64,000 nucleotides of DNA from Alphaproteobacteria bacterium UBA2966 (GTDB lineage: Bacteria > Pseudomonadota > Alphaproteobacteria > UBA2966), in contig DEBC01000137.1 of NCBI GenBank assembly GCA_002348365.1, forward strand, positions 21,821 to 85,820. Reading direction: 5' to 3'. A program made the translations under genes and the position numbers. Numbering within the stretch: the first letter of the stretch is position 1; each line of letters begins with the position of its first letter. This document shows, in pieces, positions 20,629-51,180 of this stretch. The notes under the pieces were generated by a model. It searched no databases, was not told the DNA's origin, and saw only the letters and a program-made list of their open reading frames with translations.

Positions 20629-20639
20629 ATTCGACCGTC

Positions 20640-28292: not shown

Positions 28293-29687
28293 TTGAGTAC
28301 CCCAACATATGCCCAACGCATCAAGCGTAAGGTCGGCACCACTATCCTGGGTCCTATCCTGACCCGGCTGGCGGCGGAGGGCAGGGCGCCGCTCGTAGGC
28401 AAGCTCATCCGCAGCCAGCTTGTTACGCTGAAGCAGCCACAAGTCCACGAGTCGCAGGCGATTAGCACGCTCATTCTTCCCAAGCCTGGATTCTCTGAAG
28501 ATATCCAAGCCAGCCTCGGTCGCGACGGTCGCTTTCGCATCGTCTCACTCGATCGTACCTATACCAAGTTCGTCTATAGAGCGTTCCTCCCGAAAACGGT
28601 CGATGACAACAACTATCGCTCCGCTCCACCGGAAACCGCCGACAAGAAGCTCCAATTGCGAGATTTCTGGCAAGCCGCTTGGCCCCACGTCAGCCGTGGA
28701 CAGATTGATGTCCTGTTGACCGGGAATTTCAGTTATCACGCCGAACAGGAACTCACGGCGGCGCTTGAGGTGCATGGCACACCGGTCGTCGCGTTGCACA
28801 AGGAATGCCTGAAAAGCCCAGCGCTCGAGACGTTCTACGAACACGTCTACCGTGAACGGAAGATCCCATTCCAGGGCAGTTTCATCTCGACCTACAATGA
28901 GATCGAGCGTGACATTCAGGTTCGTGCCGGGACCGTTTCCCCCGACAGGGTGGTCGTGTCCGGCATGGCGCGTCTCGATAAAATACATCACTGGCGGGAG
29001 AAGTTTGGAGGTACGATCCGTCGAACCGGTGAGCGGCCTACCGTATTGTTCATGTCGTTCAATGCGCGCACCGGCGCCCCTTTGATTTCGCGGAAGCTTC
29101 CGGGACGGAGGGAGATTCTCGACGAGGCTCAGGAAGCGGTCGGTTGGGACAGGCTGGTCGTTGAATGTCATGCGGCGATGGTCGACCTCGCCCGGCAAGA
29201 GCCGGATATCGACGTTGTCATCAAAGCCAAGGATCACGCCCGGGCTTTGGCGGTGATCGAGGAAAGCTTTGGACATGATTTCAAGACACCTGCGAATCTG
29301 AAGATCATCTGCGGCGGCGATCCGTTCTCGCTCATAACGCAGGCAGACGTTCTTTGCGGATTTAACAGCACCAGCCTGTTCGAGGCATTGGCGGCCAACG
29401 TCCCGATCGTCTCACCGCATTTTGTGGAAGCGGCGGCGGAGGATACGAAGGGCTATGTCATTGACCTCGGCGACGCGGCAGAACGGGCGCACAGCCGACA
29501 GGAGTTGATTGCTCGCCTCGCCGCGCGCGCCCGATCCACGCACGCATCGGGCCATGCAACGACCCTGGCTGACGCACAACTTCGGGCGCTCGATCACTGG
29601 CTCGGCAATGCCGATGGAAAAGCGGGTGAGCGCGTTGCATCGCTTGTCAGCGAAATCGTCCGGTCTGAGCAGCGAGCGGCTGCCTGA
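28293..29687 (+). CDS. Putative GT-B-like glycosyltransferase, tandem paralogue 1 of 3.
   Basis: Colinear with paralogues 2 and 3 (…VLLTGNFSYHAEQELTAALEVHGTPVVALHKECLK… and …QADVLCGFNSTSLFEALAANVPIVSPHF…). The TTG start is at 28293. Confidence 0.55.
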   Translation: MSTPTYAQRIKRKVGTTILGPILTRLAAEGRAPLVGKLIRSQLVTLKQPQVHESQAISTLILPKPGFSEDIQASLGRDGRFRIVSLDRTYTKFVYRAFLPKTVDDNNYRSAPPETADKKLQLRDFWQAAWPHVSRGQIDVLLTGNFSYHAEQELTAALEVHGTPVVALHKECLKSPALETFYEHVYRERKIPFQGSFISTYNEIERDIQVRAGTVSPDRVVVSGMARLDKIHHWREKFGGTIRRTGERPTVLFMSFNARTGAPLISRKLPGRREILDEAQEAVGWDRLVVECHAAMVDLARQEPDIDVVIKAKDHARALAVIEESFGHDFKTPANLKIICGGDPFSLITQADVLCGFNSTSLFEALAANVPIVSPHFVEAAAEDTKGYVIDLGDAAERAHSRQELIARLAARARSTHASGHATTLADAQLRALDHWLGNADGKAGERVASLVSEIVRSEQRAAA

Positions 29688-31098: not shown

Positions 31099-31102
31099 AC
31101 CT

Positions 31103-32467
31103 ATGTCATCACGACCGTGGCTTCTTCTCCCCATCGAAACCAAGCACCGGGAATTTTATGGCAAGATATTGTTGTCACTCGCCGCAGCCGAACGGGGTTT
31201 CGAAGTACTGCTCGGCGAACAGAACGCCATGCTTTCCCAACTCGATAACCTCCCCCAAGGCATATATCTCGACAAGAGCGTCGGCCGCACGAAGACCAAG
31301 TATTTCAAGAGACTTGATGCGCGAGGTTGCCGGATCGTGGCGTGGTGCGAAGAGGGCCTCGTCTATCGCGACCGCGACGCCTATCTGCACGAGCGTGTTT
31401 CCAACGCATCTCTGGCGCTAGCCAACAGGTTCTTCGCCTGGGGCGATGTGCAGGCCAATGATATTCACAAGCAAGCCCCAGAGGCGGATGCCAAGGTGCG
31501 GATCACCGGCAACCCACGCTTCGACATGTTGCGACCCGAATTCCGCAGTGTCTTCACGCCCGCGGCCGACAAGATTCGACAGTGCTACGGTCCATACATC
31601 CTCATCAATTCGAACTTCAGCCGGTACAACCACTTCATGGGCTACGACTTCTGGATCGAGGCCCTAAAACAGCGCGGCACGATCACGAACGATGAACAGC
31701 TCGCCTTCTACCATCGCTGGCGCGACTTCCTGGGAAAGGTCTTTCACGGCTTCATCCGTGTCATGCCGGCTCTCTCATCTGCATTCCCCGATCGGACGTT
31801 ACTGGTACGGCCACATCCGTCTGAAGATCACGCTACCTGGCTCCGCGAAACGGCTGCACTCAACAATGTCACCGTTGTGCATGAGGACAGCGCAATCCCC
31901 TGGATCGCAGGTGCCGATGCCGTCATACACAACAGCTGCACCACCGGTCTTGAGGCGTACCTTCTGGGTATTCCTGTTGCTGCATTCCGGCCTGCTGTCG
32001 ATGAGACATTTGATTCCCACCTCCCGAATGCGGTCAGTCACGAAGCGGTGGACGGCGAGGGCCTTATTGAAACCCTGCGCGAGCTCCTGGCGGGCACCGC
32101 GACCCCGCCGCCTTCCGCACAATCGGAGGTGAATAGATATGTAGCCGCGCTCGATGGCTCACTCGCGGGAGACCGTGTCGCGGATGCGTTGATCGAAATC
32201 TCTTTACGCTGTGAACCCCAGAAAATGGGACCGATACGACGCGCGAGAATTGCCCGGGAAAACACTGTCTCGGCGCTTAAGCCTATGCTCAGACGGATAC
32301 GCCGCAGCCATAAAGCGACGTCCTACGCGAAGCAAAAGTTTCCCGGAATTGAGCTCTCAGAGGTCGAACACGCCATAAACCAATTGAGAGACGTCTCGGG
32401 TCGCTTCGCCGGCATCACTTCGACGCGTTCACCGTTCCGTCACTGTTTTCGGATTTGCAAGACCTAA
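31103..32467 (+). CDS. Putative sialyltransferase-like glycosyltransferase, tandem paralogue 3 of 3.
   Basis: Contains …IVAWCEEGLVYRD… (D/E-D/E-G-type motif) and …LLVRPHPSEDH… (HP motif) ~160 aa apart. This matches the spacing of the two bacterial sialyltransferase motifs. The C-terminus …GADAVIHNSCTTGLEAYLLGIPV… parallels paralogues 1 and 2. Confidence 0.5.
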   Translation: MSSRPWLLLPIETKHREFYGKILLSLAAAERGFEVLLGEQNAMLSQLDNLPQGIYLDKSVGRTKTKYFKRLDARGCRIVAWCEEGLVYRDRDAYLHERVSNASLALANRFFAWGDVQANDIHKQAPEADAKVRITGNPRFDMLRPEFRSVFTPAADKIRQCYGPYILINSNFSRYNHFMGYDFWIEALKQRGTITNDEQLAFYHRWRDFLGKVFHGFIRVMPALSSAFPDRTLLVRPHPSEDHATWLRETAALNNVTVVHEDSAIPWIAGADAVIHNSCTTGLEAYLLGIPVAAFRPAVDETFDSHLPNAVSHEAVDGEGLIETLRELLAGTATPPPSAQSEVNRYVAALDGSLAGDRVADALIEISLRCEPQKMGPIRRARIARENTVSALKPMLRRIRRSHKATSYAKQKFPGIELSEVEHAINQLRDVSGRFAGITSTRSPFRHCFRICKT

Positions 32468-32486: not shown

Positions 32487-33656
32487 TCAGCCTGCCTCTA
32501 CACCACCGCCCACCCATTTGATACGCGGCTCCATCGTGTCGAGATTCACGTTGTCCCGGTACCGTTCGACACGATCCATCATCGATCCCACGACCTCGCT
32601 GGTCAGAAGATGGGGTTGCAGCCCCAGGTCTGTCAGCTTGGAATGTTTGGCATTGTAGTAGTGCGACTCCTGCTCCACCCGCGGGTTCGCCACGTTCTCG
32701 ATTACGACATCCAGGCCACGCGTCCTGCCGGTCTCTTGCACGAGGTTGGCGAGATTGAGGATTGAATACTCCTCGGTGAACTGGTTGAAGACACGGAACT
32801 CTCCGGGCTTAGCCGGATTCCGCGCCGCCAACTCGACGCATTGAAGGGTATCGCGAATATTCAGAATTCCCCGGGTTTGACCGCCCTTCCCATACACGGA
32901 CAGCGGTTGCCCCATCACGGCCTGAACGACGAAACGGTTCAGCACTGTCCCGAACACATGGTCGTAGTGAAAGGATGTCGCCAACTCATCGTCGAGAAGC
33001 GTTTCCGTCGTGTCGATGCCGTAGACCACGCCCTGGTTCAGATCGGTCGCACGGACACCCCAGATTCGACAGGTAAACGCGATGTTGTTCGAATCATGAA
33101 CCTTTGACAGGTGATAAAAGCTGTGCGGCTTCTTCGGGTAGAGCACGGTGTCGGTCCGCCCGTTGTGGGTGACCGTCAGATAACCTTCCTCTATGTCGAT
33201 GTTAGGGGTGCCGTACTCACCCATGCTCCCGAGCTTGACCAGGTGGGCGTCCGGGCAATGACGTCGAAGCGCGAACAGAACGTTCAACGTGCCGGTCACA
33301 TTGCCCATTTGGGTCAGGACAGCTGTAGTCCGGCCCTGCATGGAATAGGGGGCCGAAGGCTGTTCGGCGTAATGGATGATGACTTCGGGCTGCGCGGCCT
33401 GAAACAGGTTGTAAACGAACCGGTGATTGGTCAGATCGCCGACGCGCAACTCAATGGTTTTACCCGTTAGTTCTTTCCATCGACGGACTCGGCGATGCAA
33501 CGTGGGCACGGGCGCGATCGGCTCGACACCTTCTTCCAGCTCCCACTGGCGCTTGGCGAAATTGTCCGCCACCCAAACTTCGTCCCCCGCAGAAGAGAAA
33601 TGCATGGCGGTGGGCCAACCGAGATAGCCGTCACCACCCAAGACCAATACGCGCAT
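32487..33656 (-). CDS. sqdB: UDP-sulfoquinovose synthase (SqdB/SQD1/Agl3 family).
   Basis: MRVLVLGGDGYLGWPTAMHFS… and …HYAEQPSAPYSM…, …HLVKLGSMGEYGTPNIDIEEGY…, …FYHLSKVHDSNNIAFTCRIWGVRATDLNQGVVYG…, …LNRFVVQAVMGQPLSVYGKGGQTRG…IRDTLQCVELA… These blocks match SQD1/SqdB closely. Confidence 0.8.
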   Translation of the reverse strand: MRVLVLGGDGYLGWPTAMHFSSAGDEVWVADNFAKRQWELEEGVEPIAPVPTLHRRVRRWKELTGKTIELRVGDLTNHRFVYNLFQAAQPEVIIHYAEQPSAPYSMQGRTTAVLTQMGNVTGTLNVLFALRRHCPDAHLVKLGSMGEYGTPNIDIEEGYLTVTHNGRTDTVLYPKKPHSFYHLSKVHDSNNIAFTCRIWGVRATDLNQGVVYGIDTTETLLDDELATSFHYDHVFGTVLNRFVVQAVMGQPLSVYGKGGQTRGILNIRDTLQCVELAARNPAKPGEFRVFNQFTEEYSILNLANLVQETGRTRGLDVVIENVANPRVEQESHYYNAKHSKLTDLGLQPHLLTSEVVGSMMDRVERYRDNVNLDTMEPRIKWVGGGVEAG

Positions 33657-33748
33657 GAGAATTCCGAGCTAGTAGTTTGCTGTCGTAGGTGACAGGAATG
33701 CCGTCTGCAACGGCGGCGGCGTCCTTGTCTCATGAATGGAGCCTGGCA

Positions 33749-34489
33749 TCAAGCAGACTGCTCGATGTGTGGAAGCGAGACAAAACCGGCCCGAAGCAAC
33801 AAGTCACCCAGCCTGAAATCGTCAGGACCGTCGCAATCGAATCCATAAACGGCGGGCACTTCGACGGCTATGGAGGGGTCAGCGAAAACCGCCCCGGATT
33901 GAAGAATACTCTCCGATCGAAAAACAACCAGATTTCCGAACAGGTGATGCTTTGGCTTTGACTGTTTGTTGTAAGCCTGGAGTCGCTCTTCCGCGAAACG
34001 CCAACTCACGTAACCATCCGAGACCAAGCGTTGATTGTAGGCATGATGATTATGCGGACAGTCGATGACCGTCTGCGCCGATCCCGCCGAGGGATCGGCC
34101 AGAAGCTCTTTCACGCAGGTATCGATCTGCTCCGGCAAGATGAATGGCGAAGTTGGCTGCAACAACGCGATACATTCGGGCACGCCTCCCGAATCGGTCC
34201 CGCTGGTACGAAGAAAGTCCACTATGACATCAGCAACCGCAACCGAGTCGCCCGAAAGCGCAGCCGGCCGGGCACTCACTTCAACCTGCAATTCGCGGCA
34301 TCGCGCTTCAATTGGCTGAGAATCCGTGCTGCAGATGATTCGCGCCACCGAGGCACTCTGTTGCGCTGCGAGAGCGCAGTAATCGAGAAGCGGCCGCCCG
34401 CCCAGATCTGCGATGTTCTTGAGCGGTACGCTTCTTGAGCCGCCGCGCGCGGGGATCAGTCCCCAGCACACTCCAGGCAGAACGTTCAT
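33749..34489 (-). CDS. Acylneuraminate (nonulosonic acid) cytidylyltransferase, CMP-sugar synthetase copy 2.
   Basis: …GLIPARGGSRSVPLKN… CTP_transf_3. The ATGA overlap with the upstream 2-HADH gene is at 34486-34489. Confidence 0.8.
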   Translation of the reverse strand: MNVLPGVCWGLIPARGGSRSVPLKNIADLGGRPLLDYCALAAQQSASVARIICSTDSQPIEARCRELQVEVSARPAALSGDSVAVADVIVDFLRTSGTDSGGVPECIALLQPTSPFILPEQIDTCVKELLADPSAGSAQTVIDCPHNHHAYNQRLVSDGYVSWRFAEERLQAYNKQSKPKHHLFGNLVVFRSESILQSGAVFADPSIAVEVPAVYGFDCDGPDDFRLGDLLLRAGFVSLPHIEQSA

Positions 34490-35466
34490 GTTTCACCACC
34501 GCCCTTGCCTGAAAAGTACTCGACCGCCATGTCAACGACCCGCCTCTGGGTATCTCGCCAAGCATCAACCGTCGACCCACCGATGTGCGGTGTGATCAAC
34601 AGGTTGGAATGCGATCGGGCGTAATCCACAAGAGGATGCGCCGAAGCTTGAAATCCGGGATCGTATTCTCCGTCCAGCACATCGGTGGCGGCACCCGCAA
34701 TGGCGTTGCTCTTGAGCGCGTTCAAAAGGGCACTTTCATCAACAATTTCGCCGCGTGCTGTGTTTATCAAAACCGCTGATTTCTTCATGTGACCCAGTGA
34801 CTCGCGGTCAATCAGATGATGAGTCGAGTCATTGGCGGGCACATGAATCGATACGACGTCCGATTGCGCCAAGAGGTCTTTGAGGTTGTCGACCCGAAGG
34901 TACTCTGGGGACGGCGCCTCGACGTTGGGGTCAAAGTAACAAACCTGCATGCCGAACGCGCGGCCGTAACTTGCCAGTTTCTTCCCGAGCCGCCCCAGTC
35001 CGACAATGCCCAGTGAAAGCCGAGACAGCATGGCCGGTGCGCCGAAGTCGAATCGATTCCACGACCCATCCAGCACTGCGCCGTAGCTCCATGGAGTCCG
35101 CCGCAGCAGCGCCAACATCAGACCGAATGCGTGCTCCGCCGTAGGTGTGATCGTGTCGAGGAACGCCTGCTCGTCCTTCAGCGAAAACACCCGAATGCCA
35201 CGAGACGCCGCAGCTTCCATATCGATGTGGGGAACGCCGGTCGTGTTGCTTATGATGGCGCGCAGGTGAGAACACCGGACCATTTTTTTGGCGTCGAACA
35301 GATAGCCAAGGGGCGCGAAGCAGGCATCTACCTGCGAGAGGATCTCATCCGAATCCTCTGCAGGCGTGGGCAGCGCAATGACTTCGAACTCTTTCTCCAG
35401 CAAGGCCAAGTTCTCGGGCTGGTAGGAAAGCAGGTCGTAGTAGAGAACGCGAGGCTTGTCCGGCAA
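34486..35466 (-). CDS. D-isomer-specific 2-hydroxyacid dehydrogenase family protein (third copy in the window).
   Basis: …LGIVGLGRLGKKLA…, …LINTARGEIVDE…, …ITPHIGGST… It sits between the neuC-like and CMP-transferase genes. Confidence 0.8.
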   Translation of the reverse strand: MPDKPRVLYYDLLSYQPENLALLEKEFEVIALPTPAEDSDEILSQVDACFAPLGYLFDAKKMVRCSHLRAIISNTTGVPHIDMEAAASRGIRVFSLKDEQAFLDTITPTAEHAFGLMLALLRRTPWSYGAVLDGSWNRFDFGAPAMLSRLSLGIVGLGRLGKKLASYGRAFGMQVCYFDPNVEAPSPEYLRVDNLKDLLAQSDVVSIHVPANDSTHHLIDRESLGHMKKSAVLINTARGEIVDESALLNALKSNAIAGAATDVLDGEYDPGFQASAHPLVDYARSHSNLLITPHIGGSTVDAWRDTQRRVVDMAVEYFSGKGGGET

Positions 35467-35467
35467 T

Positions 35468-36613
35468 TCAGTAGGTCATTTGCTTGTTGAGAAGATTCTG
35501 GTCCACAACAACCGTTGCCAGCACATCCGTTATGCGGCGGTATGCAGTGCCGTCCCCGAACGGGGGCTGGACGTCGCGAAGGCGTTGGCGGAACTCCTCG
35601 TCGGAGACACAACGTTCGATGGCCGTTCGTATGGCATCTCGATCGTAATCGACGTCCATAACGTTTGCCGCGCGTTCTCGGCCTTTCTGTCGCTCCCCGA
35701 TATTCACGGAGGGGAGCCCAAAGTAAGGCGCTTCTATCAGGGCTGCCGATGAGTTCCCCACAATACACGCCGCCAACTTTTCCAGGCCGATGAAGTCAGC
35801 CGCCGGAATGTTGCGATGTACTGAAAGACCGGGTGAGTCGGCGACTCGTTCGATCTCTGAAATGATGCCTTCGAAACCTTGATCAGAGCAGGGGTAAACC
35901 AGCATGGCGCGATGACCCGTGGCAACCACGGCGGCGACGGTTTCGGCCATCTGGTCAGCCGCTCTGTGAGACACAGTCGAATCCGAATGCTGGAGGACAA
36001 GCATGAACGGCGCTTCCTCACTCAGATCATACTTCGCGCGGAGTTCGTCCGCGGGCGTTATGTCGCCGAGAAACACCTGATCAATATGGGTATCGCCTAC
36101 GACATGCACACGCCATGGCTCCTCCCCCATCGCGACAATTCGATCTGCGGAGGCCTGCGTTGAAGGAAAATGAATATGGGCAAGCTTGGTGATCGCATGC
36201 CGAACGGGTTCGTCCAGGCTTCCGGAAATATCGCCGCCCTGCACGTGCGCGATTGCCACCCGCATGTTGTGCGCGGCAATACAGGCGGCAAACACTTCGC
36301 CTCTGTCTCCAATGACCAGAAGAATATCGGGCTGCAGGTCCCCGAGAACCTGAGCGGCTTTTGTCAGGCAGCGCCCTATCGCTCCCGCCCGGTCCCGATT
36401 GGAATCGCCTTCCTGTTCCATGTCGATTGTCGCCGACACCGGGAATCGGGCTTGAACTTCGGTCACCGTCTTACCGAACCGGTCATACAGGTGTTGATCG
36501 GTGACCACGAGTTGAAGCGACAAGTCTGGGCTTTGTTGGATGGCATCCATGGTAGGCGCCAAGGCGCCAAATCCCCCGCGCTTGCCGTTCCACACACAGA
36601 CACGACGCATCAC
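35468..36613 (-). CDS. neuC: UDP-N-acetylglucosamine 2-epimerase (hydrolysing), NeuC/LegG-type, copy 1.
   Basis: Epimerase_2 fold: …DLLLVIGDRGEVFAACIAAHNMRVAIAHVQGGD…VRHAITKLAHIHFPST…. Confidence 0.85.
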   Translation of the reverse strand: MMRRVCVWNGKRGGFGALAPTMDAIQQSPDLSLQLVVTDQHLYDRFGKTVTEVQARFPVSATIDMEQEGDSNRDRAGAIGRCLTKAAQVLGDLQPDILLVIGDRGEVFAACIAAHNMRVAIAHVQGGDISGSLDEPVRHAITKLAHIHFPSTQASADRIVAMGEEPWRVHVVGDTHIDQVFLGDITPADELRAKYDLSEEAPFMLVLQHSDSTVSHRAADQMAETVAAVVATGHRAMLVYPCSDQGFEGIISEIERVADSPGLSVHRNIPAADFIGLEKLAACIVGNSSAALIEAPYFGLPSVNIGERQKGRERAANVMDVDYDRDAIRTAIERCVSDEEFRQRLRDVQPPFGDGTAYRRITDVLATVVVDQNLLNKQMTY

Positions 36614-37641
36614 ACGAGGTCCTCGAACGACAAAGCTTCATCGGCGACGACATCTCTGGCCAGCGTCCGACCGATGAATTCGGGCAGACGGTTGGACAGA
36701 ACTCCAGTGCCGGGCCGCTTCGTCGCCAGATCTTCTCTGGAAATGATGAGCCCTTCGGCAAGGTCCCGTGACGCGACCACCGACTTCAAAGCCCATGCCT
36801 GAGCGTCCACTTCCGAGGGCGCGGGTTCCTTTCTGCCGTGTCCGAGCAACGTCTCGATCCGCCGGATGTCTCGAACGAGACCCGGAAAGTCGTCCGGACC
36901 TGCGGATACCCTCCAGTCCTGGGCATCTGGAATGTCACGCAGGATCGTAATGTGTTTCTCAACGATCGATGCGCCGCGCGCCACGGCAGACAAAATGGCC
37001 AGATGATCTTCGGTATGGTCGGAATATCCGACAGGTCCCGGAAAAATTGATTGGAGCGCATCCATGGCCGAGAGATTCACATCAGATTCAGGTGTCGGAT
37101 AACTCGTCACGCAGTGCAGCAGCGCGACTTCGTCCATTCCGGCGTTGGAGAGGGCATCGAGCGCTTCCGTTACATCGGATTCCCGGTACATGCCCGTCGA
37201 GACGATCATTGGCTTTCCGAGCTGGGCCAACTGGGAGAGAAACTCGGGATTGTTCCGTTCACCCGAACCCACTTTAACCGCCGGAACATCAAGCTCCCGC
37301 AACCAATCAATTCGCGAGGCATCATGCGCCGTCGCCATGAACAGAAGGCCCGCTGCATCGCAGCGTTCCTTCAGTTCCTGAAACTGGGGCAACGACAAGT
37401 TTCTCGGCCGGAGGCGGTCGCGCCAGTCGGGCGCCGACTCCGCGATGAGCTCATCCACGTCGAACACCTGTGTTTTAAAGATATCGGCACCCGCTTCCGC
37501 GGCGAGATCCACGAGTTGGCGGGCGAGATCCATATCGCCAAAGTGTGCAACGCCGGCCTCCGCAATCACGAAGACAGGCGCGTCCGCCCCGACTTCTCGA
37601 TCGCCGATTCGAAAGCGCGATTTGAATTTCGAGGCGGGCAT
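36610..37641 (-). CDS. neuB: N-acylneuraminate (nonulosonic acid) synthase, NeuB/LegI/PseI family, copy 1.
   Basis: …PVFVIAEAGVAHFGDMDLARQLVD…DIFKTQ… NeuB TIM barrel plus a C-terminal SAF/antifreeze-like domain (…ATKRPGTGVL…). The ATGA overlap with neuC is at 36610-36613. Confidence 0.85.
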   Translation of the reverse strand: MPASKFKSRFRIGDREVGADAPVFVIAEAGVAHFGDMDLARQLVDLAAEAGADIFKTQVFDVDELIAESAPDWRDRLRPRNLSLPQFQELKERCDAAGLLFMATAHDASRIDWLRELDVPAVKVGSGERNNPEFLSQLAQLGKPMIVSTGMYRESDVTEALDALSNAGMDEVALLHCVTSYPTPESDVNLSAMDALQSIFPGPVGYSDHTEDHLAILSAVARGASIVEKHITILRDIPDAQDWRVSAGPDDFPGLVRDIRRIETLLGHGRKEPAPSEVDAQAWALKSVVASRDLAEGLIISREDLATKRPGTGVLSNRLPEFIGRTLARDVVADEALSFEDLV

Positions 37642-37945: not shown

Positions 37946-39691
37946 TTGAACCGACGGTTCGAAACACTTGGAAAAATCCGCCACCTCATCGCTAGGCGCG
38001 AATGGATCATTCTCGGACTCTGTTGCCTGATGCTCCTTGCCTCAGTCGCTGAGAGCATGGGACTGGCTCTTGTTCTCCCGCTGATCTCCAGTCTCACCGG
38101 TGTATCCGAGGGTTCCGGCACGGTTGCTGAGATTAGTGTAAGACTGCGGGAACTGATCCCTGATGGGGTTGAGCTTGAAGGCCTGGTGTTATTGGTGGCC
38201 CTGGCGTTTCTGCTCAAAGGCGTTCTTCTGGTGATGTCTCGTGGCGCCGCCGACTATTTCTCCTTCCGTCTGCGTGAAGACTGGGCCGCAAAGATTTTTG
38301 ATCACTACCTGCGCGCCCGCTATGCCTACGCGACGTCGCAGCGGCAGGGCGAGATGGTGAACAACATCACGATCGAGCCTTATCGGGCCGCCCGGGCGAT
38401 CACCGTCCTTCTCGATTTCTTGAATCGGATAATTCTGGCGACCGTGCTGCTTACAGTCCTGCTCTTCACCAACTGGCAGGCGACACTGACTATTTCGCTG
38501 GTTGGCGCGCTTCTGTTCTTTGCCGTTCGCAAGTCCACATTCAACTACTCCCTTCACTTCGGCAAGCTGCGCCAGAAGCTCTACCAGCAAATTTCATCCA
38601 TAGGAGCCGAAGCCACCGGGGCGGCCCTTCAGGTGAAGCTGTTCGGAATCTACGACCAGGTGACGGGAGAATTGACCGCCAGGCTCAAACGACACACGCG
38701 TGCTGAGACACTCTTTCGAATTCTCAATGAGATCCCTCTCCAGTCGACCGAATTCCTCATCGTCCTTTTCCTGAGCGTTGCGCTGATCACCCTCAAACAG
38801 GTGGGCGACGTCGCACCGGAAAGCATTGCGGCAATGTTGGGCTTTTATGTTGTGCTCGGTCAGCGGCTTCTCACCAACGTCAATTTCATCATTTCGCGAC
38901 GGATGAAGATTGCCTCACAGATCCCGTCACTGATGCTGATGCATGAGCTGATTGAGAACATTCCCGACCGCGAAGACATCGAAACAGGTCAGGAACTCGC
39001 AACCCTTGACGACGACATTGTCTTCGAGAATGTGACCTTCAGCCATGAGAACGGCAAGCGCGTTTTCCGCGATCTCAACCTGCGTATACCCAAAGGGAAA
39101 ATCACCGGAATCGTTGGCCCATCCGGCACCGGCAAGTCAACGTTCGCCGACCTCATCCTGGGTCTATATGCTCCCGATCACGGGAGTGTCAGCGTCGGGG
39201 GTCATGTGCTCTCGACATATAATCTCCGATCGGTCCGCCAGCGAATTGGGTACGTGAGCCAAGCCCCCGAAATCTTCAATACTTCGATCCGAGAGAACAT
39301 ACGGATTGGCAATCCCAGCGCATCTGAGGATGAAGTGGTTGCAGCTGCCCGCGATGCCCATGCCTTCGATTTTGTTGCCGAACTGCCCGACGGTTTCGAT
39401 ACCGTTGTCGGAGATCGTGGCGTGAAGTTGTCGGGCGGACAGAGGCAGCGGATCGCGATCGCGCGGGTCATTCTGCGCGCACCCGATCTTTACATTTTCG
39501 ACGAGGCGACAAGCGCCCTCGACACTGAATCGGAACGCCTCATTCAAGACTCGATCCAACGTCTTGCGCACAACGCGACAATTGTCATCATCGCGCACCG
39601 CCTCTCCACGGTGCAATCAGCCGACGTGATTTACGAACTCGATGACACCGGAAAAGCGACAGCGCGCGAATTTTCCGAGATTGCTGTATAG
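37946..39691 (+). CDS. ABC transporter, fused permease/ATPase (MsbA/PglK/NdvA-like type I exporter).
   Basis: Six N-terminal TM helices, Walker A GPSGTGKST, the signature LSGGQRQRIAIAR and Walker B IFDEATSALD. The TTG start at 37946 has an AGAGAGAGA RBS. Confidence 0.85.
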   Translation: MNRRFETLGKIRHLIARREWIILGLCCLMLLASVAESMGLALVLPLISSLTGVSEGSGTVAEISVRLRELIPDGVELEGLVLLVALAFLLKGVLLVMSRGAADYFSFRLREDWAAKIFDHYLRARYAYATSQRQGEMVNNITIEPYRAARAITVLLDFLNRIILATVLLTVLLFTNWQATLTISLVGALLFFAVRKSTFNYSLHFGKLRQKLYQQISSIGAEATGAALQVKLFGIYDQVTGELTARLKRHTRAETLFRILNEIPLQSTEFLIVLFLSVALITLKQVGDVAPESIAAMLGFYVVLGQRLLTNVNFIISRRMKIASQIPSLMLMHELIENIPDREDIETGQELATLDDDIVFENVTFSHENGKRVFRDLNLRIPKGKITGIVGPSGTGKSTFADLILGLYAPDHGSVSVGGHVLSTYNLRSVRQRIGYVSQAPEIFNTSIRENIRIGNPSASEDEVVAAARDAHAFDFVAELPDGFDTVVGDRGVKLSGGQRQRIAIARVILRAPDLYIFDEATSALDTESERLIQDSIQRLAHNATIVIIAHRLSTVQSADVIYELDDTGKATAREFSEIAV

Positions 39692-39721: not shown

Positions 39722-40777
39722 ATGACACACCCCACCATTGAAATCGCAGGCAAGACCATCGGCATTGGCCAGCCGGCGTTCCTGATCGCCGAAGTCGCCC
39801 AAACTCATGACGGATCGCTTGGCCTCGCTCATGCGTTCATCGATGCAGCGGCTGATACCGGGGCAGATGCCATCAAGTTTCAGACCCACATCGCCGATGC
39901 CGAATCCACGCTCGATGAAGAGTTCCGGGTTGCATTCAGCAAACAGGACAAGACGCGGTACGACTACTGGAAGCGCATGGAATTTACGCCTGAGCAGTGG
40001 TCGGGTCTGGCCGAACATGCCAGCGCGCGAGGCGTGGTGTTTCTCAGTTCGGCCTTTTCGGTGGCAGCCATCAATCTTCTGGAAGCGATTGGCATCCCGG
40101 CGTGGAAGGTAGGTTCCGGAGAATTCAGGTCGGACGACCTTCTGGCACGCCTGTGCGAGACCGGATTTCCGGTCATTTTCTCTACGGGGATGAGCACGTG
40201 GCAGGAAATTGAAACCGCTGTCGCAGCGTTTCAGGAGCAGAAGTCGCCGCTTGCGCTCCTTCAGTGCACGAGCCGTTACCCAACGCCTCTTGAGGAAGTC
40301 GGGCTGAATGTCATCGACGACCTTCGAAACCGCTTTGACGTCCCAGCCGGACTGTCGGATCACTCAGGGAGTATTTATCCATCGCTTGCCGCACTCGCGC
40401 GCGGTGCCAATCTCATCGAGGTCCACCTGACACTCGACAGGCGATTGTTTGGTCCCGATGTCCCGGTATCGCTGACACCTGACGAGATGCGAACGGTGTG
40501 CGAGGCGCGTGACGCCTTTGCGGTCATGGACGCCAATCCTGTCGACAAGGAGACCATGGCCAAGAACCTCAGCACCATGCGTGATCTCTTCACCAAGAGC
40601 CTGGCGGTGACGCGTCCTCTCGCAGCGGGTACCAGGCTGACACCAGATATGTTGACCTCGAAAAAGCCCGGCACCGGCATACCCGCTGGGGATCTGGGGG
40701 GCTTTGTGGGTCGAACCCTCGCGCGTGACGTATCACCTGACCGTTTGCTTTCTCTCGAGGATATTGATGGCGGATAA
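39722..40777 (+). CDS. neuB: N-acylneuraminate (nonulosonic acid) synthase, NeuB/LegI/PseI family, copy 2.
   Basis: …PAFLIAEVAQTHDGSLGLAHAFIDAAADTGADAIKFQTH… and a C-terminal SAF domain (…SKKPGTGIP…). Confidence 0.85.
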   Translation: MTHPTIEIAGKTIGIGQPAFLIAEVAQTHDGSLGLAHAFIDAAADTGADAIKFQTHIADAESTLDEEFRVAFSKQDKTRYDYWKRMEFTPEQWSGLAEHASARGVVFLSSAFSVAAINLLEAIGIPAWKVGSGEFRSDDLLARLCETGFPVIFSTGMSTWQEIETAVAAFQEQKSPLALLQCTSRYPTPLEEVGLNVIDDLRNRFDVPAGLSDHSGSIYPSLAALARGANLIEVHLTLDRRLFGPDVPVSLTPDEMRTVCEARDAFAVMDANPVDKETMAKNLSTMRDLFTKSLAVTRPLAAGTRLTPDMLTSKKPGTGIPAGDLGGFVGRTLARDVSPDRLLSLEDIDGG

Positions 40778-42002
40778 ACGCAAGATTTGCATCGTGGTGA
40801 ACAGCCGGGCCAATTACGCCCGAATCAAATCCGTCATGCGCGCCATCGAAGAGCACGAGGCTTTGGACCTCAAGCTTATCGTCGGTGCTTCGGCGCTGCT
40901 CCACCGGTTTGGCGCGGTTCGCGACATCATCGAAGCTGATGGCTTTACTCCGGTATCGACCGTTTACTCCATCGTCGAAGGTGAAACACCAACGACAATG
41001 GCAAAGTCGACAGGTATGGGCATCATCGAGCTCGCGACTCAATTCGAAAACATTCAGCCCGATATCGTCCTGACTGTCGCCGACAGGTTCGAGACGATCG
41101 CGACCGCCATCGCCGCCAGCTATATGAATATTCCCGTTGCGCACACACAAGGCGGGGAAGTCACAGGTTCCATCGACGAAAGCGTGCGCCATGCCGTAAC
41201 CAAGCTCGCGCATATTCATTTTCCTGCGACGGGTCGGGCTCGGGACAACGTCGTGCGTATGGGTGAGGACCCGGAAATGGTGTTTCTCACCGGATGTCCA
41301 TCAATCGACCTTATTGCGGATCTCGATCTACGAATGCCGCCCGATATGTTTGAGCGGTATCGCGGTGTCGGCGCACAAATTGACCCGTCGCAGCCTTACC
41401 TGGTCGTCCTCCAGCATCCCGTGACAACAGAGTACGGCTCAGGGTTAGATCAGATCTGGGAGACGCTGACCGCGGTCGAAAAAGTTGGTTTGCAGGCCGC
41501 ATGGCTATGGCCAAACGTGGATGCAGGGTCCGACGACATTTCAAAGGGACTGCGTGTTTACCGGGAGCGCAACAATCCCGACTGGCTCCACTTTTATCGT
41601 CACTTTGGCGCGGAGGATTACGCGCGCCTGATAAACAACGCGGCCTGCCTGGTCGGCAACTCAAGCTCTGGGCTGAGGGAGGGCGCATACCTCGGTGTTC
41701 CCGCAGTCAATATCGGGACCCGCCAACAAGGTCGGGAACATGGGGAGAACGTCATCCACGTCGACTATGACGCGGCGCAGATTGAAGCGACGGTCAACCA
41801 GCAAATATCTCACGGCCGGCACCAGAGCGCGCATTTATTCGGTGATGGAAATGCGGGCAGGAAAATTGCAGACGTTCTCGCCTCTGTCGAACCCAACGTT
41901 CAAAAGCGACTCACGTATGACCAGTCGCATGACCAGGGAATCCAACAGCTGGCAGAACGCGCGCGCCTGAGACGACATCTCACCGGGAACGGCACTCGAT
42001 GA
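40767..42002 (+). CDS. neuC: UDP-N-acetylglucosamine 2-epimerase (hydrolysing), NeuC-type, copy 2, with a C-terminal extension.
   Basis: …DIVLTVADRFETIATAIAASYMNIPVAHTQGGE…VRHAVTKLAHIHFPAT… The ATG at 40767 overlaps the neuB2 3' end by 11 nt. Confidence 0.8.
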   Translation: MADKRKICIVVNSRANYARIKSVMRAIEEHEALDLKLIVGASALLHRFGAVRDIIEADGFTPVSTVYSIVEGETPTTMAKSTGMGIIELATQFENIQPDIVLTVADRFETIATAIAASYMNIPVAHTQGGEVTGSIDESVRHAVTKLAHIHFPATGRARDNVVRMGEDPEMVFLTGCPSIDLIADLDLRMPPDMFERYRGVGAQIDPSQPYLVVLQHPVTTEYGSGLDQIWETLTAVEKVGLQAAWLWPNVDAGSDDISKGLRVYRERNNPDWLHFYRHFGAEDYARLINNAACLVGNSSSGLREGAYLGVPAVNIGTRQQGREHGENVIHVDYDAAQIEATVNQQISHGRHQSAHLFGDGNAGRKIADVLASVEPNVQKRLTYDQSHDQGIQQLAERARLRRHLTGNGTR

Positions 42003-43819: not shown

Positions 43820-43952
43820 CAGGTGCCCGGCACTCTTATGAGGTAACGATCTTGTCGTCTAGGAACGGATCGCAAGCATACTCCCCCAGCGACGGGTGTC
43901 ACGGTTCCAACTCACGTCGTCGCGCGGTATAGCGGTACGGACACGGCGGCGT

Positions 43953-51176: not shown

Positions 51177-51180
51177 TCGT

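What the first reader, a model, noticed from the sequence alone, without database searches (positions are those of the whole stretch)
32487..37641. UDP-sulfoquinovose synthase is the terminal gene of a neuB-neuC-2HADH-neuA operon
sqdB/SQD1-family enzymes normally sit with sulfolipid genes such as sqdD/SQD2. Here a clear SqdB homologue follows a nonulosonic-acid module on the minus strand, and the only gap in the operon is 92 nt, upstream of sqdB. No sulfolipid glycosyltransferase is visible nearby. This suggests UDP-sulfoquinovose feeds the glycan rather than SQDG. To my knowledge sulfoquinovose in a glycan is known from Sulfolobus N-glycans (Agl3) but has not been described for a bacterial polysaccharide.
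Basis: partly seen in the sequence, partly recalled or inferred. Interest (0 to 1): 0.8.

Follow-up and report, generated by a model that had tools for sequence, protein, structure and literature searches.

The report
Sulfo-sugar synthase tied to sialic-acid-like genes
A marine bacterium carries the enzyme that normally makes the sulfur sugar of plant membrane lipids inside a gene set for sialic-acid-like surface sugars, and this pairing recurs across many uncultured bacteria, which suggests an undescribed sulfonated cell-surface glycan rather than a sulfolipid.

Summary
Five minus-strand ORFs (neuB, neuC, 2-hydroxyacid dehydrogenase, CMP-sugar synthetase, sqdB) lie at exactly the stated coordinates, and the only spacer is 92 nt. 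The last ORF is a genuine SQD1/SqdB-family enzyme: 520 bits to Arabidopsis SQD1, with the [ST]MG...YHxxK fingerprint.

The linkage is not chance. All 32 SqdB homologues found next to nonulosonic-acid (NulO) genes form one clade (SH-aLRT 99), drawn from Alphaproteobacteria, a Falkowbacteria genome and metagenome contigs. None of 117 assessable homologues outside that clade is NulO-linked. Their NeuB partners also form a clade of their own (SH-aLRT 98), with four sugar-pocket residues replaced invariantly. In the Falkowbacteria operon, cysH-, cysD- and cysN-like genes sit directly before sqdB-neuB.

The window genome has no GT8/SqdD, no SqdC and no photosynthetic reaction centre. An SqdX-type GT4 could not be excluded.

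The locus is an undecaprenyl-type surface-glycan island with three Pse/Leg-transferase-like genes, sulfotransferases and an ABC flippase. The five same-genus genomes searched lack both sqdB and the partner NeuB type.

Unresolved: either sulfoquinovose is a separate glycan residue, or the sulfo-sugar is the precursor of a 9-sulfonated nonulosonic acid.

The parts
36610..37641 (-). neuB-S: NeuB-family nonulosonic-acid synthase of the sqdB-associated clade; first gene of the operon.
   Evidence: Pfam NeuB+SAF; TIGR03569 308 bits, below the 399 cut-off. About 175 bits to N. meningitidis NeuB 1XUU. Falls in the sqdB-linked NeuB clade, SH-aLRT 98. Clade-invariant W73, H106, T179 and W283 sit at NmNeuB pocket positions N74, F112, N184 and F288.
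35468..36613 (-). neuC: hydrolysing UDP-N-acetylglucosamine 2-epimerase type.
   Evidence: TIGR03568 356.5 bits, above the 235.9 cut-off; Pfam Epimerase_2. Forms a two-gene module with sqdB in G008 (L098).
34486..35466 (-). D-isomer-specific 2-hydroxyacid dehydrogenase; role in the pathway unknown.
   Evidence: Pfam 2-Hacid_dh_C 172.6 bits; no NCBIfam model above its cut-off. Conserved in most sqdB-NulO cassettes.
33749..34489 (-). CMP-nonulosonic-acid synthetase (NeuA/PseF-like cytidylyltransferase).
   Evidence: Pfam CTP_transf_3 75.7 bits; TIGR03584 PseF 83 bits, below the 205.7 cut-off.
33657..33748 (-). 92-nt spacer between the cytidylyltransferase gene and sqdB. Contains a GAGACAA motif shared with four related loci.
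   Evidence: Sequence. Alignment with L110, L004, L006 and L116. No promoter- or terminator-like site in it and no Rfam family.
32487..33656 (-). sqdB-N: UDP-sulfoquinovose-synthase-family enzyme of the NulO-associated clade; terminal gene.
   Evidence: 520 bits, E 2.5e-155 to SQD1 1QRR over residues 2-387. GGDGYLG, SMG and YHLSK motifs. NF041015 440 bits. In a clade of 32 NulO-linked SqdBs, SH-aLRT 99.
31100..32467 (+). Putative nonulosonic-acid transferase, convergent with sqdB.
   Evidence: TIGR04396 'surface carbohydrate biosynthesis protein' 389.7 bits, above the 125 cut-off. NF046086 BFO_1060-family glycosyltransferase 81.5 bits, below the 200 cut-off. Atlas neighbours. The BFO_1060 family is the T. 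forsythia Pse/Leg-derivative transferase (PMC5420450).
29509..31098 (+). Paralogous TagF-like/BFO_1060-like putative transferase. Its start is probably later than the first in-frame start codon.
   Evidence: Weak NF046086 (32.4 bits) and TIGR04396 hits. No Pfam hit. Homologues lie beside the operon in L004, L006, L105 and L110.
28293..29687 (+). Paralogous TagF-like/BFO_1060-like putative transferase.
   Evidence: Atlas score 0.99 to a 'CDP-glycerol:poly(glycerophosphate) glycerophosphotransferase family' cluster. Weak NF046086/TIGR04396 hits. A homologue lies directly upstream of sqdB in L114.
37946..39691 (+). Fused TMD-NBD ABC exporter (HepA/MsbA/PglK-like), divergent from neuB-S; candidate lipid-linked-glycan flippase.
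   Evidence: Pfam ABC_tran and ABC_membrane. NCBIfam HepA 328, MsbA 291 and PglK 259 bits, all below their cut-offs. Lies next to neuB-S in 9 loci.
39722..43003 (+). Second NulO set: neuB2 (39722-40777), neuC2 (40704-42002) and a Gfo/Idh/MocA oxidoreductase (41999-43003).
   Evidence: NeuB2 lies outside the sqdB-linked NeuB clade.
23165..23899 (+). Second CMP-NulO synthetase-like gene. This type replaces the neuA type next to sqdB in some loci.
   Evidence: Pfam CTP_transf_3; PseF 108.7 bits, below the cut-off. Homologues are adjacent to sqdB in L008, L009, L103, L119 and L126.
23857..24726 (+). Sulfotransferase (PAPS-dependent family); the locus also makes sulfate esters.
   Evidence: Pfam Sulfotransfer_3 110 bits.
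43896..44786 (+). Second sulfotransferase.
   Evidence: Pfam Sulfotransfer_1 32 bits.
45649..48023 (+). GT4 glycosyltransferase (45649-46833) and a Wzy_C-domain protein (46830-48023; O-antigen ligase, polymerase or O-oligosaccharyltransferase type).
   Evidence: The GT4 matches no NCBIfam model above its cut-off.
15927..17113 (+). HTH_24 regulator (15927-16610) plus a NusG paralogue (16607-17113); likely locus regulators.
   Evidence: The pair lies next to sqdB or the neu operon in L096, L097, L100 and L102; the HTH gene alone was matched next to the neu operon in L116.
50103..53148 (+). Glycos_transf_4 (WecA/WbpL-type initiating phosphoglycosyl transferase, 50103-51176) and a Polysacc_synt_2 PglF/WbpM-like dehydratase (51181-53148).

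Best explanation
The 389-aa product is a working UDP-sulfoquinovose-synthase-type enzyme. By the established SQD1/Agl3 chemistry it oxidises C4 with bound NAD+, dehydrates across C5-C6, adds sulfite at C6 and reduces C4 again. It belongs to a distinct, previously unremarked subfamily (called SqdB-N here) that occurs only in cassettes with a dedicated NeuB-type nonulosonic-acid synthase (NeuB-S), a NeuC, a CMP-sugar synthetase and usually a 2-hydroxyacid dehydrogenase.

In this marine, non-phototrophic alphaproteobacterium the cassette sits in a variable surface-glycan island. The five same-genus genomes searched lack sqdB and NeuB-S. The island also encodes three Pse/Leg-transferase-like enzymes, a second NulO set, two sulfotransferases, several methyltransferases, an MsbA/PglK-like ABC exporter, a GT4, a Wzy_C protein and an initiating phosphoglycosyl transferase.

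The sulfo-sugar nucleotide is therefore consumed in building a strongly anionic, NulO-containing glycan on a polyprenyl carrier, not in making SQDG. My committed reading of the last step is that UDP-sulfoquinovose is a glycosyl donor, so that sulfoquinovose sits beside the nonulosonic acid in the glycan.

Shown: family membership, the conserved linkage, the clade structure and the absence of SqdD. Inferred: enzyme activity, use of sulfite, and the fate of the product.
For: Family:
- 520 bits to SQD1 over the full length.
- GxxGxxG, the [ST]MG...Yx3K fingerprint of SQ synthases and the His after the catalytic Tyr are all present (fingerprint from PMC8987622).

Linkage:
- The same or a permuted cassette occurs in 8 genome loci (L004-L011), 7 relatives' genomes and about 17 metagenome contigs.
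- sqdB is last in most, first in L114, convergent in L100/L102, and paired with neuC alone in L098.
- All 32 NulO-linked SqdBs form one clade (FastTree 99; IQ-TREE SH-aLRT 99). None of 117 assessable homologues outside it is NulO-linked.

Co-occurrence in 61 related genomes:
- sqdB is in 7 relatives and NeuB-S orthologues are in the same 7 plus G011. The other 52, including the 5 same-genus genomes, have neither.

Sulfite:
- In Falkowbacteria locus L034, CysH-, CysD- and CysN-like genes lie between neuA and sqdB-neuB.

Not SQDG:
- No PF01501/GT8 match. No SqdD or SqdC homologue using S. meliloti and Marinovum references. No PufL/M.

Glycan context.

Precedent: SQ occurs in Sulfolobus N-glycans through Agl3 (PMC4388408).

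Expression: metatranscriptome contigs cover sqdB, which is a weak hint only.
Against: - No chemistry was measured, so activity, substrate and product are all inferred.
- No Leloir-type glycosyltransferase is consistently linked to sqdB. In the compact island of G010 the only transferases are two BFO_1060-like (CMP-sugar-type) enzymes. A dedicated SQ transferase is therefore not identified.
- Cassette-like packing with neuB/neuC/neuA, and the remodelled NeuB-S pocket, fit the rival better, in which the sulfo-sugar is the NulO precursor.
- NF041015 scores below its cut-off (440 against 575).
- SQD1 Arg101 is Pro here. An Arg101 is essential in Agl3, but its equivalence to the SQD1 residue was not verified, and Pro also occurs in 35 of 137 homologues outside the clade.
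- The ten GT4s of the genome could not be tested against a named SqdX.
Confidence: 0.45

Rival explanations
1. The sulfo-sugar is the precursor of the nonulosonic acid. SqdB-N takes the place that the 4,6-dehydratase PseB/LegB holds in the pseudaminic and legionaminic pathways. It would make a UDP-6-deoxy-6-sulfo-2-acetamido-hexose, NeuC would release the 6-sulfo-ManNAc analogue, NeuB-S would condense it with PEP, and the cytidylyltransferase would activate a 9-deoxy-9-sulfo nonulosonic acid. The BFO_1060-like enzymes would then transfer it.
For: - SqdB-N and NeuB-S are each monophyletic and occur together across phyla through many rearrangements.
- There are tight four-gene cassettes neuB-neuC-neuA-sqdB, with 3- to 11-nt gaps in L122 and a similar layout in L119/L126. 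There is an sqdB-neuC pair (L098) and an sqdB-neuB pair with a 5-nt gap, preceded by cysHDN-like genes (L034).
- NeuB-S keeps all catalytic, PEP and metal residues and Arg314. Four sugar-pocket positions are replaced invariantly by W, H, T and W.
- No Leloir GT is conserved with sqdB, and the compact island in G010 holds only NulO-type transferases.
- The cassettes in the window and its close relatives hold no other nucleotide-sugar-modifying enzyme and no aminotransferase; L125 does carry a second SDR next to sqdB.
Against: - The SqdB-N active-site motifs are essentially those of UDP-glucose-specific SQD1. The clade-specific residues (N77, R79, Y82, C134) lie on a surface helix and a loop (placement inferred from the general SDR fold, not modelled). 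Only Q107 and P100 fall in the active-site loop.
- NeuC chemistry needs a 2-acetamido sugar (established mechanism). SqdB would therefore have to accept UDP-GlcNAc, for which there is no precedent.
- NeuC and cytidylyltransferase partners are of at least two types that have been swapped, as expected for generic steps.
- G011 has neuB-S, the 2HADH gene and neuA without a detectable sqdB or neuC1, though its assembly is only 92% complete.
- No C-sulfonated nonulosonic acid is known.
Confidence: 0.3
2. Ordinary sulfolipid synthesis. SqdB makes UDP-SQ for SQDG, or another SQ lipid, through an unlinked GT4 or an unknown transferase. Its position behind the NulO genes would be hitch-hiking within a mobile island.
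For: - SQDG is the only established bacterial fate of UDP-SQ (PMC13436972).
- The genome has ten GT4 genes, including one in the locus, and SqdX/SQD2 are GT4 enzymes.
- sqdB and sqdX are unlinked in some cyanobacteria.
- The 92-nt spacer could hold a promoter of its own.
Against: - The linkage survives inversion, reordering and transfer between phyla, and it defines a clade. Hitch-hiking does not predict that.
- No GT8, SqdD or SqdC.
- The genome's own GT4s match sqdB-adjacent GT4s of Chloroflexota and Syntrophaceae only over part of their length, at 25-36% identity and at most 85 bits.
- The organism has no reaction-centre genes.
- Alphaproteobacterial SQDG-type SqdB (S. meliloti, Marinovum) is only 38-39% identical and forms the outgroup.
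Confidence: 0.1
3. The enzyme does not sulfonate here. It would act as a UDP-hexose 5,6- or 4,6-dehydratase, as Agl3 does without sulfite and as Pen does in the Bacillus pseudaminic-acid route, and would feed a 6-deoxy sugar or a NulO variant.
For: - Agl3 gives UDP-glucose-5,6-ene when sulfite is absent.
- Pen is a 5,6-dehydratase of a Pse pathway (PMC8987622; PMC4388408).
- SQD1 R101 is replaced by Pro.
Against: - Sulfate-activation and sulfite-forming genes sit immediately before sqdB in L034.
- Sequence conservation with SQD1 is very high, including the SQ-synthase-specific [ST]MG and YH motifs.
- Pro at position 101 also occurs in other clades.
Confidence: 0.05

Closest known systems
SQD1 (Arabidopsis) / SqdB (cyanobacteria): UDP-sulfoquinovose synthase of SQDG synthesis
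   Same: Full-length homology to SQD1 (520 bits). The NAD-binding motif, the [ST]MG...YHxxK catalytic signature and the UDP-sugar-binding motifs (DLNQGVVYG, FGT.LNRF, NPRVE..HYYNAKH) are all kept. The chemistry is presumably the same, with sulfite as sulfur donor.
   Different: It is linked to nonulosonic-acid genes and not to sqdX/SQD2/sqdD. It belongs to a separate clade with its own invariant surface residues (N77, R79, Y82, C134) and loop changes (P100, Q107). The host is a non-phototroph with no GT8.
Agl3 of Sulfolobus acidocaldarius: UDP-SQ synthase feeding an N-glycan
   Same: This is the only documented case in which UDP-SQ goes into a glycan and not a lipid (PMC4388408). It is the functional analogue of the committed reading.
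   Different: Agl3 is archaeal, works in a dolichol/AglB N-glycosylation system and has no NulO genes. The window protein scores 440 bits against NF041015, below its 575 cut-off. Its relation to Agl3 itself could not be measured, because no Agl3 sequence was available.
Pse/Leg nonulosonic-acid pathways (PseB/LegB dehydratase, PseG/LegG, PseI/LegI, PseF/LegF)
   Same: The cassette logic is the same: one SDR acting on a nucleotide sugar at C4/C6, a NeuC-type hydrolysing epimerase, a NeuB-type synthase and a cytidylyltransferase. Transferases of the BFO_1060 family lie nearby.
   Different: The cassette has no aminotransferase or N-acetyltransferase. The SDR is a sulfite-adding SqdB and not a 4,6-dehydratase. 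The NeuB partner forms a clade outside the other NeuB-family sequences sampled here, whose specificities are unknown.
sqdBDC operon of Rhodobacter/Sinorhizobium (alphaproteobacterial SQDG)
   Same: The host class (Alphaproteobacteria) and the enzyme family are the same.
   Different: Identity is only 38-39%, and these sequences form the outgroup of the tree. Their neighbours are a GT8 SqdD and an SDR SqdC, neither of which is found in this genome.

Membership tests
UDP-sulfoquinovose synthase (SQD1/SqdB/Agl3, EC 3.13.1.1) | Extended-SDR fold with an N-terminal GxxGxxG NAD site and full-length homology to SQD1 | tested here: met
   GGDGYLG at residues 7-13. Matches 1QRR over residues 2-387, E 2.5e-155, 520 bits; the next best PDB family scores 40 bits.
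UDP-sulfoquinovose synthase (SQD1/SqdB/Agl3, EC 3.13.1.1) | Catalytic signature [ST]MG...Yx3K specific to SQ synthases, with His after the Tyr | tested here: met
   The sequence reads GSMGEYG...SFYHLSK. Thr145 of SQD1 is Ser in the window protein only, and the other 31 clade members have Thr (fingerprint from PMC8987622).
UDP-sulfoquinovose synthase (SQD1/SqdB/Agl3, EC 3.13.1.1) | Score above the curated NCBIfam equivalog cut-off (NF041015, 575 bits) | tested here: not met
   440.4 bits over model positions 1-383. Only 1 of the 14 control genomes scores above the cut-off, although at least two of them are known from the literature to make UDP-SQ. The cut-off is therefore narrow.
UDP-sulfoquinovose synthase (SQD1/SqdB/Agl3, EC 3.13.1.1) | Arg101 in the active-site loop (Ala replacement inactivates Agl3) | tested here: inconclusive
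   The window has Pro at the SQD1 Arg101 position (EQPSAPYSM). Pro is present in all 32 clade members and in 35 of 137 other homologues. Equivalence of Agl3 R101 and SQD1 R101 was not verified.
UDP-sulfoquinovose synthase (SQD1/SqdB/Agl3, EC 3.13.1.1) | Converts UDP-glucose plus sulfite to UDP-SQ | not testable with these tools
   Indirect evidence only: CysH/CysD/CysN-like genes lie directly upstream of sqdB in L034.
SQDG (sulfolipid) pathway | SqdD-type GT8 sulfoquinovosyltransferase and SqdC present in the genome | tested here: not met
   No PF01501 match in the 97.7%-complete genome. tblastn with SqdD of S. meliloti and Marinovum found nothing at E 1e-3. SqdC gave only generic SDR hits.
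SQDG (sulfolipid) pathway | SqdX/SQD2-type GT4 sulfoquinovosyltransferase present in the genome | tested here: inconclusive
   Ten GT4 genes. None passes an NCBIfam cut-off except SenB. Best likeness to sqdB-adjacent GT4s of L041/L047/L055 is 25-36% identity over 85-280 residues and at most 85 bits. No named SqdX sequence was available.
Nonulosonic-acid biosynthesis (NeuB/NeuC/NeuA type) | Hydrolysing UDP-GlcNAc 2-epimerase above the curated cut-off | tested here: met
   TIGR03568 356.5 bits against a 235.9 cut-off.
Nonulosonic-acid biosynthesis (NeuB/NeuC/NeuA type) | NeuB with catalytic residues (E25, K53/Q55, T110, K129, Y186, S213, H215, E234, H236, R314) and the canonical sugar pocket (N74, F112, N184, F288) | tested here: inconclusive
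   Every catalytic, PEP, metal and Arg314 position is kept. The four pocket positions read W73, H106, T179 and W283, invariant in 24 of 24 clade members (residue list from PMC6795526). TIGR03569 scores 308 bits, below the 399.65 cut-off. It is a NeuB-family enzyme, but its product cannot be assigned.
Nonulosonic-acid transferases (BFO_1060 / TIGR04396) | Score above the curated cut-off | tested here: met
   The ORF at 31100-32467 scores 389.7 bits against TIGR04396 (cut-off 125). Against NF046086 it scores 81.5 bits, below the 200 cut-off. The two paralogues score only 26-32 bits against these models. The donor sugar is not testable here.

The most novel reading that the evidence does not exclude
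The cassette makes a new class of sugar, a C9-sulfonated nonulosonic acid (9-deoxy-9-sulfo-Neu5Ac-like, carrying carboxylate and sulfonate on one residue). A sulfite-adding SqdB would replace the 4,6-dehydratase of the Pse/Leg pathways, and a NeuB subfamily with a remodelled pocket (W73/H106/T179/W283) would accept the 6-sulfo-hexosamine. The sugar would be displayed on marine Alphaproteobacteria and on a candidate-phyla-radiation bacterium.
Probability: 0.3. Interest if true: 0.92.

Novelty: new variant of a known kind. Interest (0 to 1): 0.78.

Why it matters
Sulfoquinovose is treated as a product of phototrophs that enters the sulfur cycle as the lipid SQDG. A 2026 review of aquatic SQ cycling does not mention glycan-bound SQ in heterotrophs.

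A conserved SqdB-nonulosonic-acid cassette in marine heterotrophs and a Falkowbacteria genome would add three things:
- a second, glycan-bound source of C-sulfonated sugar in the sea;
- the first bacterial counterpart of the archaeal SQ glycans;
- or, in the bolder reading, a new sialic-acid-like sugar.

It also gives a clean experimental handle. There are four or five soluble enzymes with cheap substrates, and the predicted products have masses that are easy to detect. The sequence signature (the SqdB-N and NeuB-S clades) can be used to mine genomes.

Surface sugars of this kind usually decide phage adsorption, grazing and particle attachment.

Tried and rejected
- Named SqdX/SQD2 reference: none could be obtained. 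NCBIfam has no such model. PLSDB held only SqdD-type operons. The GT4 test therefore stays inconclusive.
- Mulichak 1999 (PMC23906) is not held. The SQD1 residues that contact the glucose C2 hydroxyl could not be looked up, so a Glc versus GlcNAc preference could not be read from the sequence.
- Specificity-determining positions in SqdB-N: none falls in a known catalytic motif. This does not settle the substrate.
- Rfam on the whole window: no family. Promoter and terminator scan: nothing in the 92-nt spacer, and counts for the region are at shuffle level.
- Literature: no paper links sulfoquinovose with nonulosonic acids, and no sulfoquinovosamine or bacterial SQ glycan turned up. The hit in a Salmonella vaccine paper was not opened.
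- T. forsythia NulO paper: searched for a role of a 2-hydroxyacid dehydrogenase in N-glyceroyl formation and found nothing. The 2HADH role stays unknown.
- The 'AIR-synthase-like' gene at the edge of the G010/L004 island is SelD. I take it as a flanking gene, not part of the cassette.
- Read laying: all runs are contigs. Parts of the operon without RNA-library cover (33796-36974) carry no meaning. DNA may also be present in the RNA library.
- Complex prediction, structure prediction and fold search were not used. No claim here rests on binding or fold, and the tools return no ligand geometry.
- The NeuB-S group tested was defined from the clade seen. Three long-branch NeuB-family rows (L175 x2, L125_1851) were left out of that run. 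L112 has a non-S NeuB next to sqdB. These are the exceptions to the pairing.

Full report
**1. The observation**

The five minus-strand ORFs exist at the stated coordinates: 36610-37641, 35468-36613, 34486-35466, 33749-34489 and 32487-33656. They are joined by a 4-nt overlap, a 1-nt gap and a 4-nt overlap. A 92-nt spacer then precedes the last ORF.

Profile searches name them as follows:
- NeuB+SAF: TIGR03569 308 bits, below its cut-off.
- NeuC: TIGR03568 356 bits, above its cut-off.
- A D-2-hydroxyacid dehydrogenase.
- A CTP_transf_3 cytidylyltransferase.
- An SDR whose only strong model is UDP-sulfoquinovose synthase: NF041015 440 bits over the full length, below the 575 cut-off.

The last protein aligns with Arabidopsis SQD1 over residues 2-387 (E 2.5e-155, 520 bits). 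GalE-type proteins score about 30-40 bits. It carries GGDGYLG, the SQ-synthase fingerprint [ST]MG...Yx3K as SMG...YHLSK, and the His after the Tyr (fingerprint from PMC8987622). It is therefore not 'an ordinary UDP-glucose 4-epimerase'. Two departures were noted. Thr145 of SQD1 is Ser, in this protein only. Arg101 of SQD1 is Pro, which is also the case in 35 of 137 homologues outside its clade.

A promoter-like site for the operon lies in the divergent spacer at 37826-37798. Nothing promoter- or terminator-like lies in the 92-nt gap. That gap shares a GAGACAA motif with four related loci.

**2. The surroundings**

The window is G000:C161:21821-85820, from a 4.08-Mb assembly that is 97.7% complete. 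The genes around the operon form a surface-glycan island. The genes identified are:
- heparinase II/III-like gene and UDP-glucose dehydrogenase;
- an HTH regulator plus a NusG paralogue;
- a methyltransferase, a second 2HADH, a ThDP enzyme and an MBOAT;
- a second cytidylyltransferase;
- a sulfotransferase, a deacetylase and two methyltransferases;
- three 455-530-aa proteins without Pfam hits;
- the operon itself;
- an MsbA/PglK/HepA-like ABC exporter, neuB2-neuC2 with a Gfo/Idh/MocA gene, a CDP-alcohol phosphatidyltransferase, a second sulfotransferase, a methyltransferase, a GT4 and a Wzy_C protein;
- after a bioY/cbiQ pair, a WecA/WbpL-type initiating transferase and a PglF/WbpM-like dehydratase.

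The three unnamed proteins are TagF-like. The one convergent with sqdB is a member of TIGR04396 (389.7 bits) and resembles the BFO_1060 family (81.5 bits). The other two hit the same models weakly. BFO_1060 is the Tannerella forsythia family in which deleting Tanf_01245 or TFUB4_00887 removes the terminal Pse or Leg derivative from the O-glycan (PMC5420450). The locus therefore has three candidate nonulosonic-acid transferases and one GT4.

**3. The linkage is conserved and defines a clade**

A scan of one genome per species returned 80 SqdB loci. The eight closest are alphaproteobacterial MAGs at 63-74% identity, and all have NulO genes beside sqdB.

Among 60 relatives of the window genome, sqdB occurs in seven. 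Close orthologues of the operon's NeuB (at least 62% identity) occur in the same seven plus G011. The other 52 genomes have neither, including the five of the same genus, several of them closed.

A metagenome scan added about 17 more linked loci, including a near-syntenic one (L110, 88% identity).

The arrangements differ:
- sqdB is last in most loci and first in L114.
- It is convergent with the neu genes, next to the HTH regulator, in L100/L102.
- It is split off as an sqdB-neuC pair beside a transposase in L098.
- It sits in tight neuB-neuC-neuA-sqdB cassettes in L122, L119 and L126.

In a tree of 169 SqdB homologues, all 31 NulO-linked sequences plus one short contig form one clade (SH-like 99). 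No assessable sequence outside it (0 of 117) is NulO-linked. IQ-TREE with a site-heterogeneous model gives the same split on 91 sequences (SH-aLRT 99). The clade includes a Candidatus Falkowbacteria genome (L034). SQDG-type SqdB of S. meliloti and Marinovum (38-39% identity, followed by GT8 sqdD and sqdC) is the outgroup.

**4. The partner NeuB is special too**

Twenty sqdB-adjacent NeuBs form one clade with four orthologues that lie on separate contigs (in three sqdB-bearing genomes and in G011). Support is SH-like 98 and SH-aLRT 98. The clade excludes NeuB2 of the same loci, the third NeuB of this genome, and 20 NeuBs from other relatives' loci that are not next to sqdB. The exceptions are L112 and three very divergent sequences (L175 x2, L125_1851).

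Aligned to N. meningitidis NeuB, the clade keeps E25, K53/Q55, T110, K129, Y186, S213, H215, E234, H236, D247 and R314. Four of the listed pocket residues are replaced: N74, F112, N184 and F288 become W73, H106, T179 and W283. These are invariant in 24 of 24 clade members and rare or absent in the other NeuBs (pocket list from PMC6795526 Table 3).

By contrast, the NeuC and cytidylyltransferase partners come in at least two types each.

**5. Sulfite**

In L034 the operon reads as follows:
- hisF-like and hisH-like genes;
- an N-acetyl-sugar amidotransferase;
- a TagF-like transferase;
- neuC, a methyltransferase and neuA;
- a CysH-like, a CysD-like and a CysN-like gene;
- sqdB, then neuB after a 5-nt gap.

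A WbaP/PglC-like initiating transferase lies opposite. Genes that activate sulfate and reduce it to sulfite, placed directly before sqdB inside a NulO operon, are the best indirect evidence that the enzyme sulfonates in this context.

**6. Not a sulfolipid operon**

- The genome has no GT8.
- It has no SqdD or SqdC homologue.
- It has no PufL/M.
- Its ten GT4s include none that resembles the GT4s next to sqdB in Chloroflexota or Syntrophaceae beyond generic partial similarity.
- No named SqdX reference could be obtained, so that test is inconclusive.

In the 169 homologues sampled, SQDG-type neighbours are in any case rare:
- Acidobacteria: GT21/GT2-like, AsnB-like and PMT_2 genes.
- Actinobacteria: a GT2 with DUF2304.
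- The Chloroflexia sister clade: an SDR epimerase and a flippase.

**7. How it most likely works**

Shown:
- membership of the SQD1 family;
- conserved, clade-defining linkage to a dedicated NeuB;
- the glycan-locus context;
- the absence of SqdD.

Inferred:
- SqdB-N adds sulfite at C6 of a UDP-hexose.
- The product ends up in a NulO-containing anionic glycan that is assembled on a polyprenyl carrier, flipped by the ABC exporter and further sulfated and methylated.

I put about 0.75 on that general statement. Two routes fit the last step.

Route (i), 0.45: UDP-SQ is a donor and SQ is a residue next to the NulO. The precedent is Sulfolobus Agl3 (PMC4388408). In L034, the initiating transferase plus one NulO-type transferase would suffice for two sugars.

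Route (ii), 0.3: the sulfo-sugar is the NulO precursor and yields a 9-deoxy-9-sulfo nonulosonic acid. For it:
- the cassette packing;
- the sqdB-neuC and sqdB-neuB pairs;
- the remodelled NeuB pocket with Arg314 retained;
- the lack of any conserved Leloir transferase. In G010 the whole island is two BFO_1060-like genes, a methyltransferase and the five operon genes, flanked by SelD/MarR and sarcosine-oxidase-like genes.

Against route (ii):
- the SQD1-like active site;
- the requirement of NeuC chemistry for a 2-acetamido sugar;
- the interchangeable NeuC and cytidylyltransferase types;
- G011, which has neuB-S, the 2HADH gene and neuA without a detectable sqdB or neuC1 in a 92%-complete assembly.

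SQDG synthesis (0.1) and sulfite-independent dehydratase activity (0.05) are minor rivals.

**8. Habitat and expression**

- The stretch is held by marine metagenomes of several studies.
- Contigs from one metatranscriptomic library cover most of sqdB and part of neuB at 95% identity or more. This is a weak hint only, because DNA carry-over is possible.

**9. Novelty**

The enzymes belong to known families. The combination has not been described in the held literature. What is new:
- the two co-occurring subfamilies;
- the implied sulfonated bacterial glycan.

I rate it a new variant of a known kind, with a real chance (0.3) of a categorically new sugar.

Noticed in passing
L034:7054-12182 (Candidatus Falkowbacteria contig PFAR01000027.1): CysH-like (PAPS_reduct, 225 aa), CysD-like (PAPS_reduct, 301 aa) and CysN-like (GTP_EFTU, 418 aa) genes lie inside a nonulosonic-acid operon directly before sqdB-neuB. 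This is a private sulfite supply in a candidate-phyla-radiation genome.
   Followed up: partly
L017, L024, L025 and about 25 other Acidobacteriota loci, within 4 kb of sqdB: The acidobacterial SqdB clade is flanked by a GT21/GT2-like transferase (about 390 aa), an asparagine-synthase-like amidotransferase (about 640 aa) and a PMT_2/ArnT-like GT-C (about 670 aa). Actinobacteria have a GT2 with DUF2304, and the Chloroflexia sister clade has an SDR epimerase and a flippase. None of these is sqdX or sqdD, so UDP-SQ may have further non-SQDG fates in soil bacteria.
   Followed up: partly
G000:C171:4263-5354 (own genome, outside the window); L004:1051-2115: The genome encodes a SenB selenoneine selenosugar synthase (TIGR04348, 408 bits, above its cut-off). 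A SelD selenophosphate synthetase borders the sqdB island in L004, L006 and L105.
   Followed up: no
window 15927-17113: An HTH_24 regulator and a NusG paralogue (a candidate operon-specific antiterminator) form a pair. The pair also lies next to sqdB or the neu operon in L096, L097, L100 and L102; in L116 only the HTH gene was matched.
   Followed up: partly
window 17181-22178: A methyltransferase, a second 2-hydroxyacid dehydrogenase (41% identical to the operon's), an acetolactate-synthase-like ThDP enzyme (weak likeness to sulfoacetaldehyde acetyltransferase) and an MBOAT acyltransferase lie in a row. This may be a side-chain or acyl-modification module of the same glycan.
   Followed up: no
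L007:7714-9912, also L010 and L104; an unannotated 2.3-kb gap at the same place in L117; L034:13648-15276: A B12-binding radical-SAM protein (732 aa) is inserted inside the neuB...sqdB operon in some loci. A radical-SAM gene lies beside the Falkowbacteria operon.
   Followed up: no
L098:2901-5195; L009:17909-19828; L011: Asparagine-synthase-like amidotransferases recur near sqdB in alphaproteobacterial loci as well as in Acidobacteriota. In L098 a DDE transposase follows, which may explain why the sqdB-neuC module assembles on its own short contig.
   Followed up: no
window 33657-33748: The spacer before sqdB shares a GAGACAA motif and GC-rich inverted repeats with L110, L004, L006 and L116. 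No Rfam family matches, and no promoter or terminator consensus is present.
   Followed up: partly
window 56556-61406: A 1616-aa large NAD-specific glutamate dehydrogenase (Bac_GDH family) lies on the minus strand. It is unrelated to the glycan locus.
   Followed up: no
G000:C114:2350-3348: The genome has a third NeuB-family gene (37% identical to neuB-S) on another contig, so up to three nonulosonic-acid synthases are encoded.
   Followed up: partly
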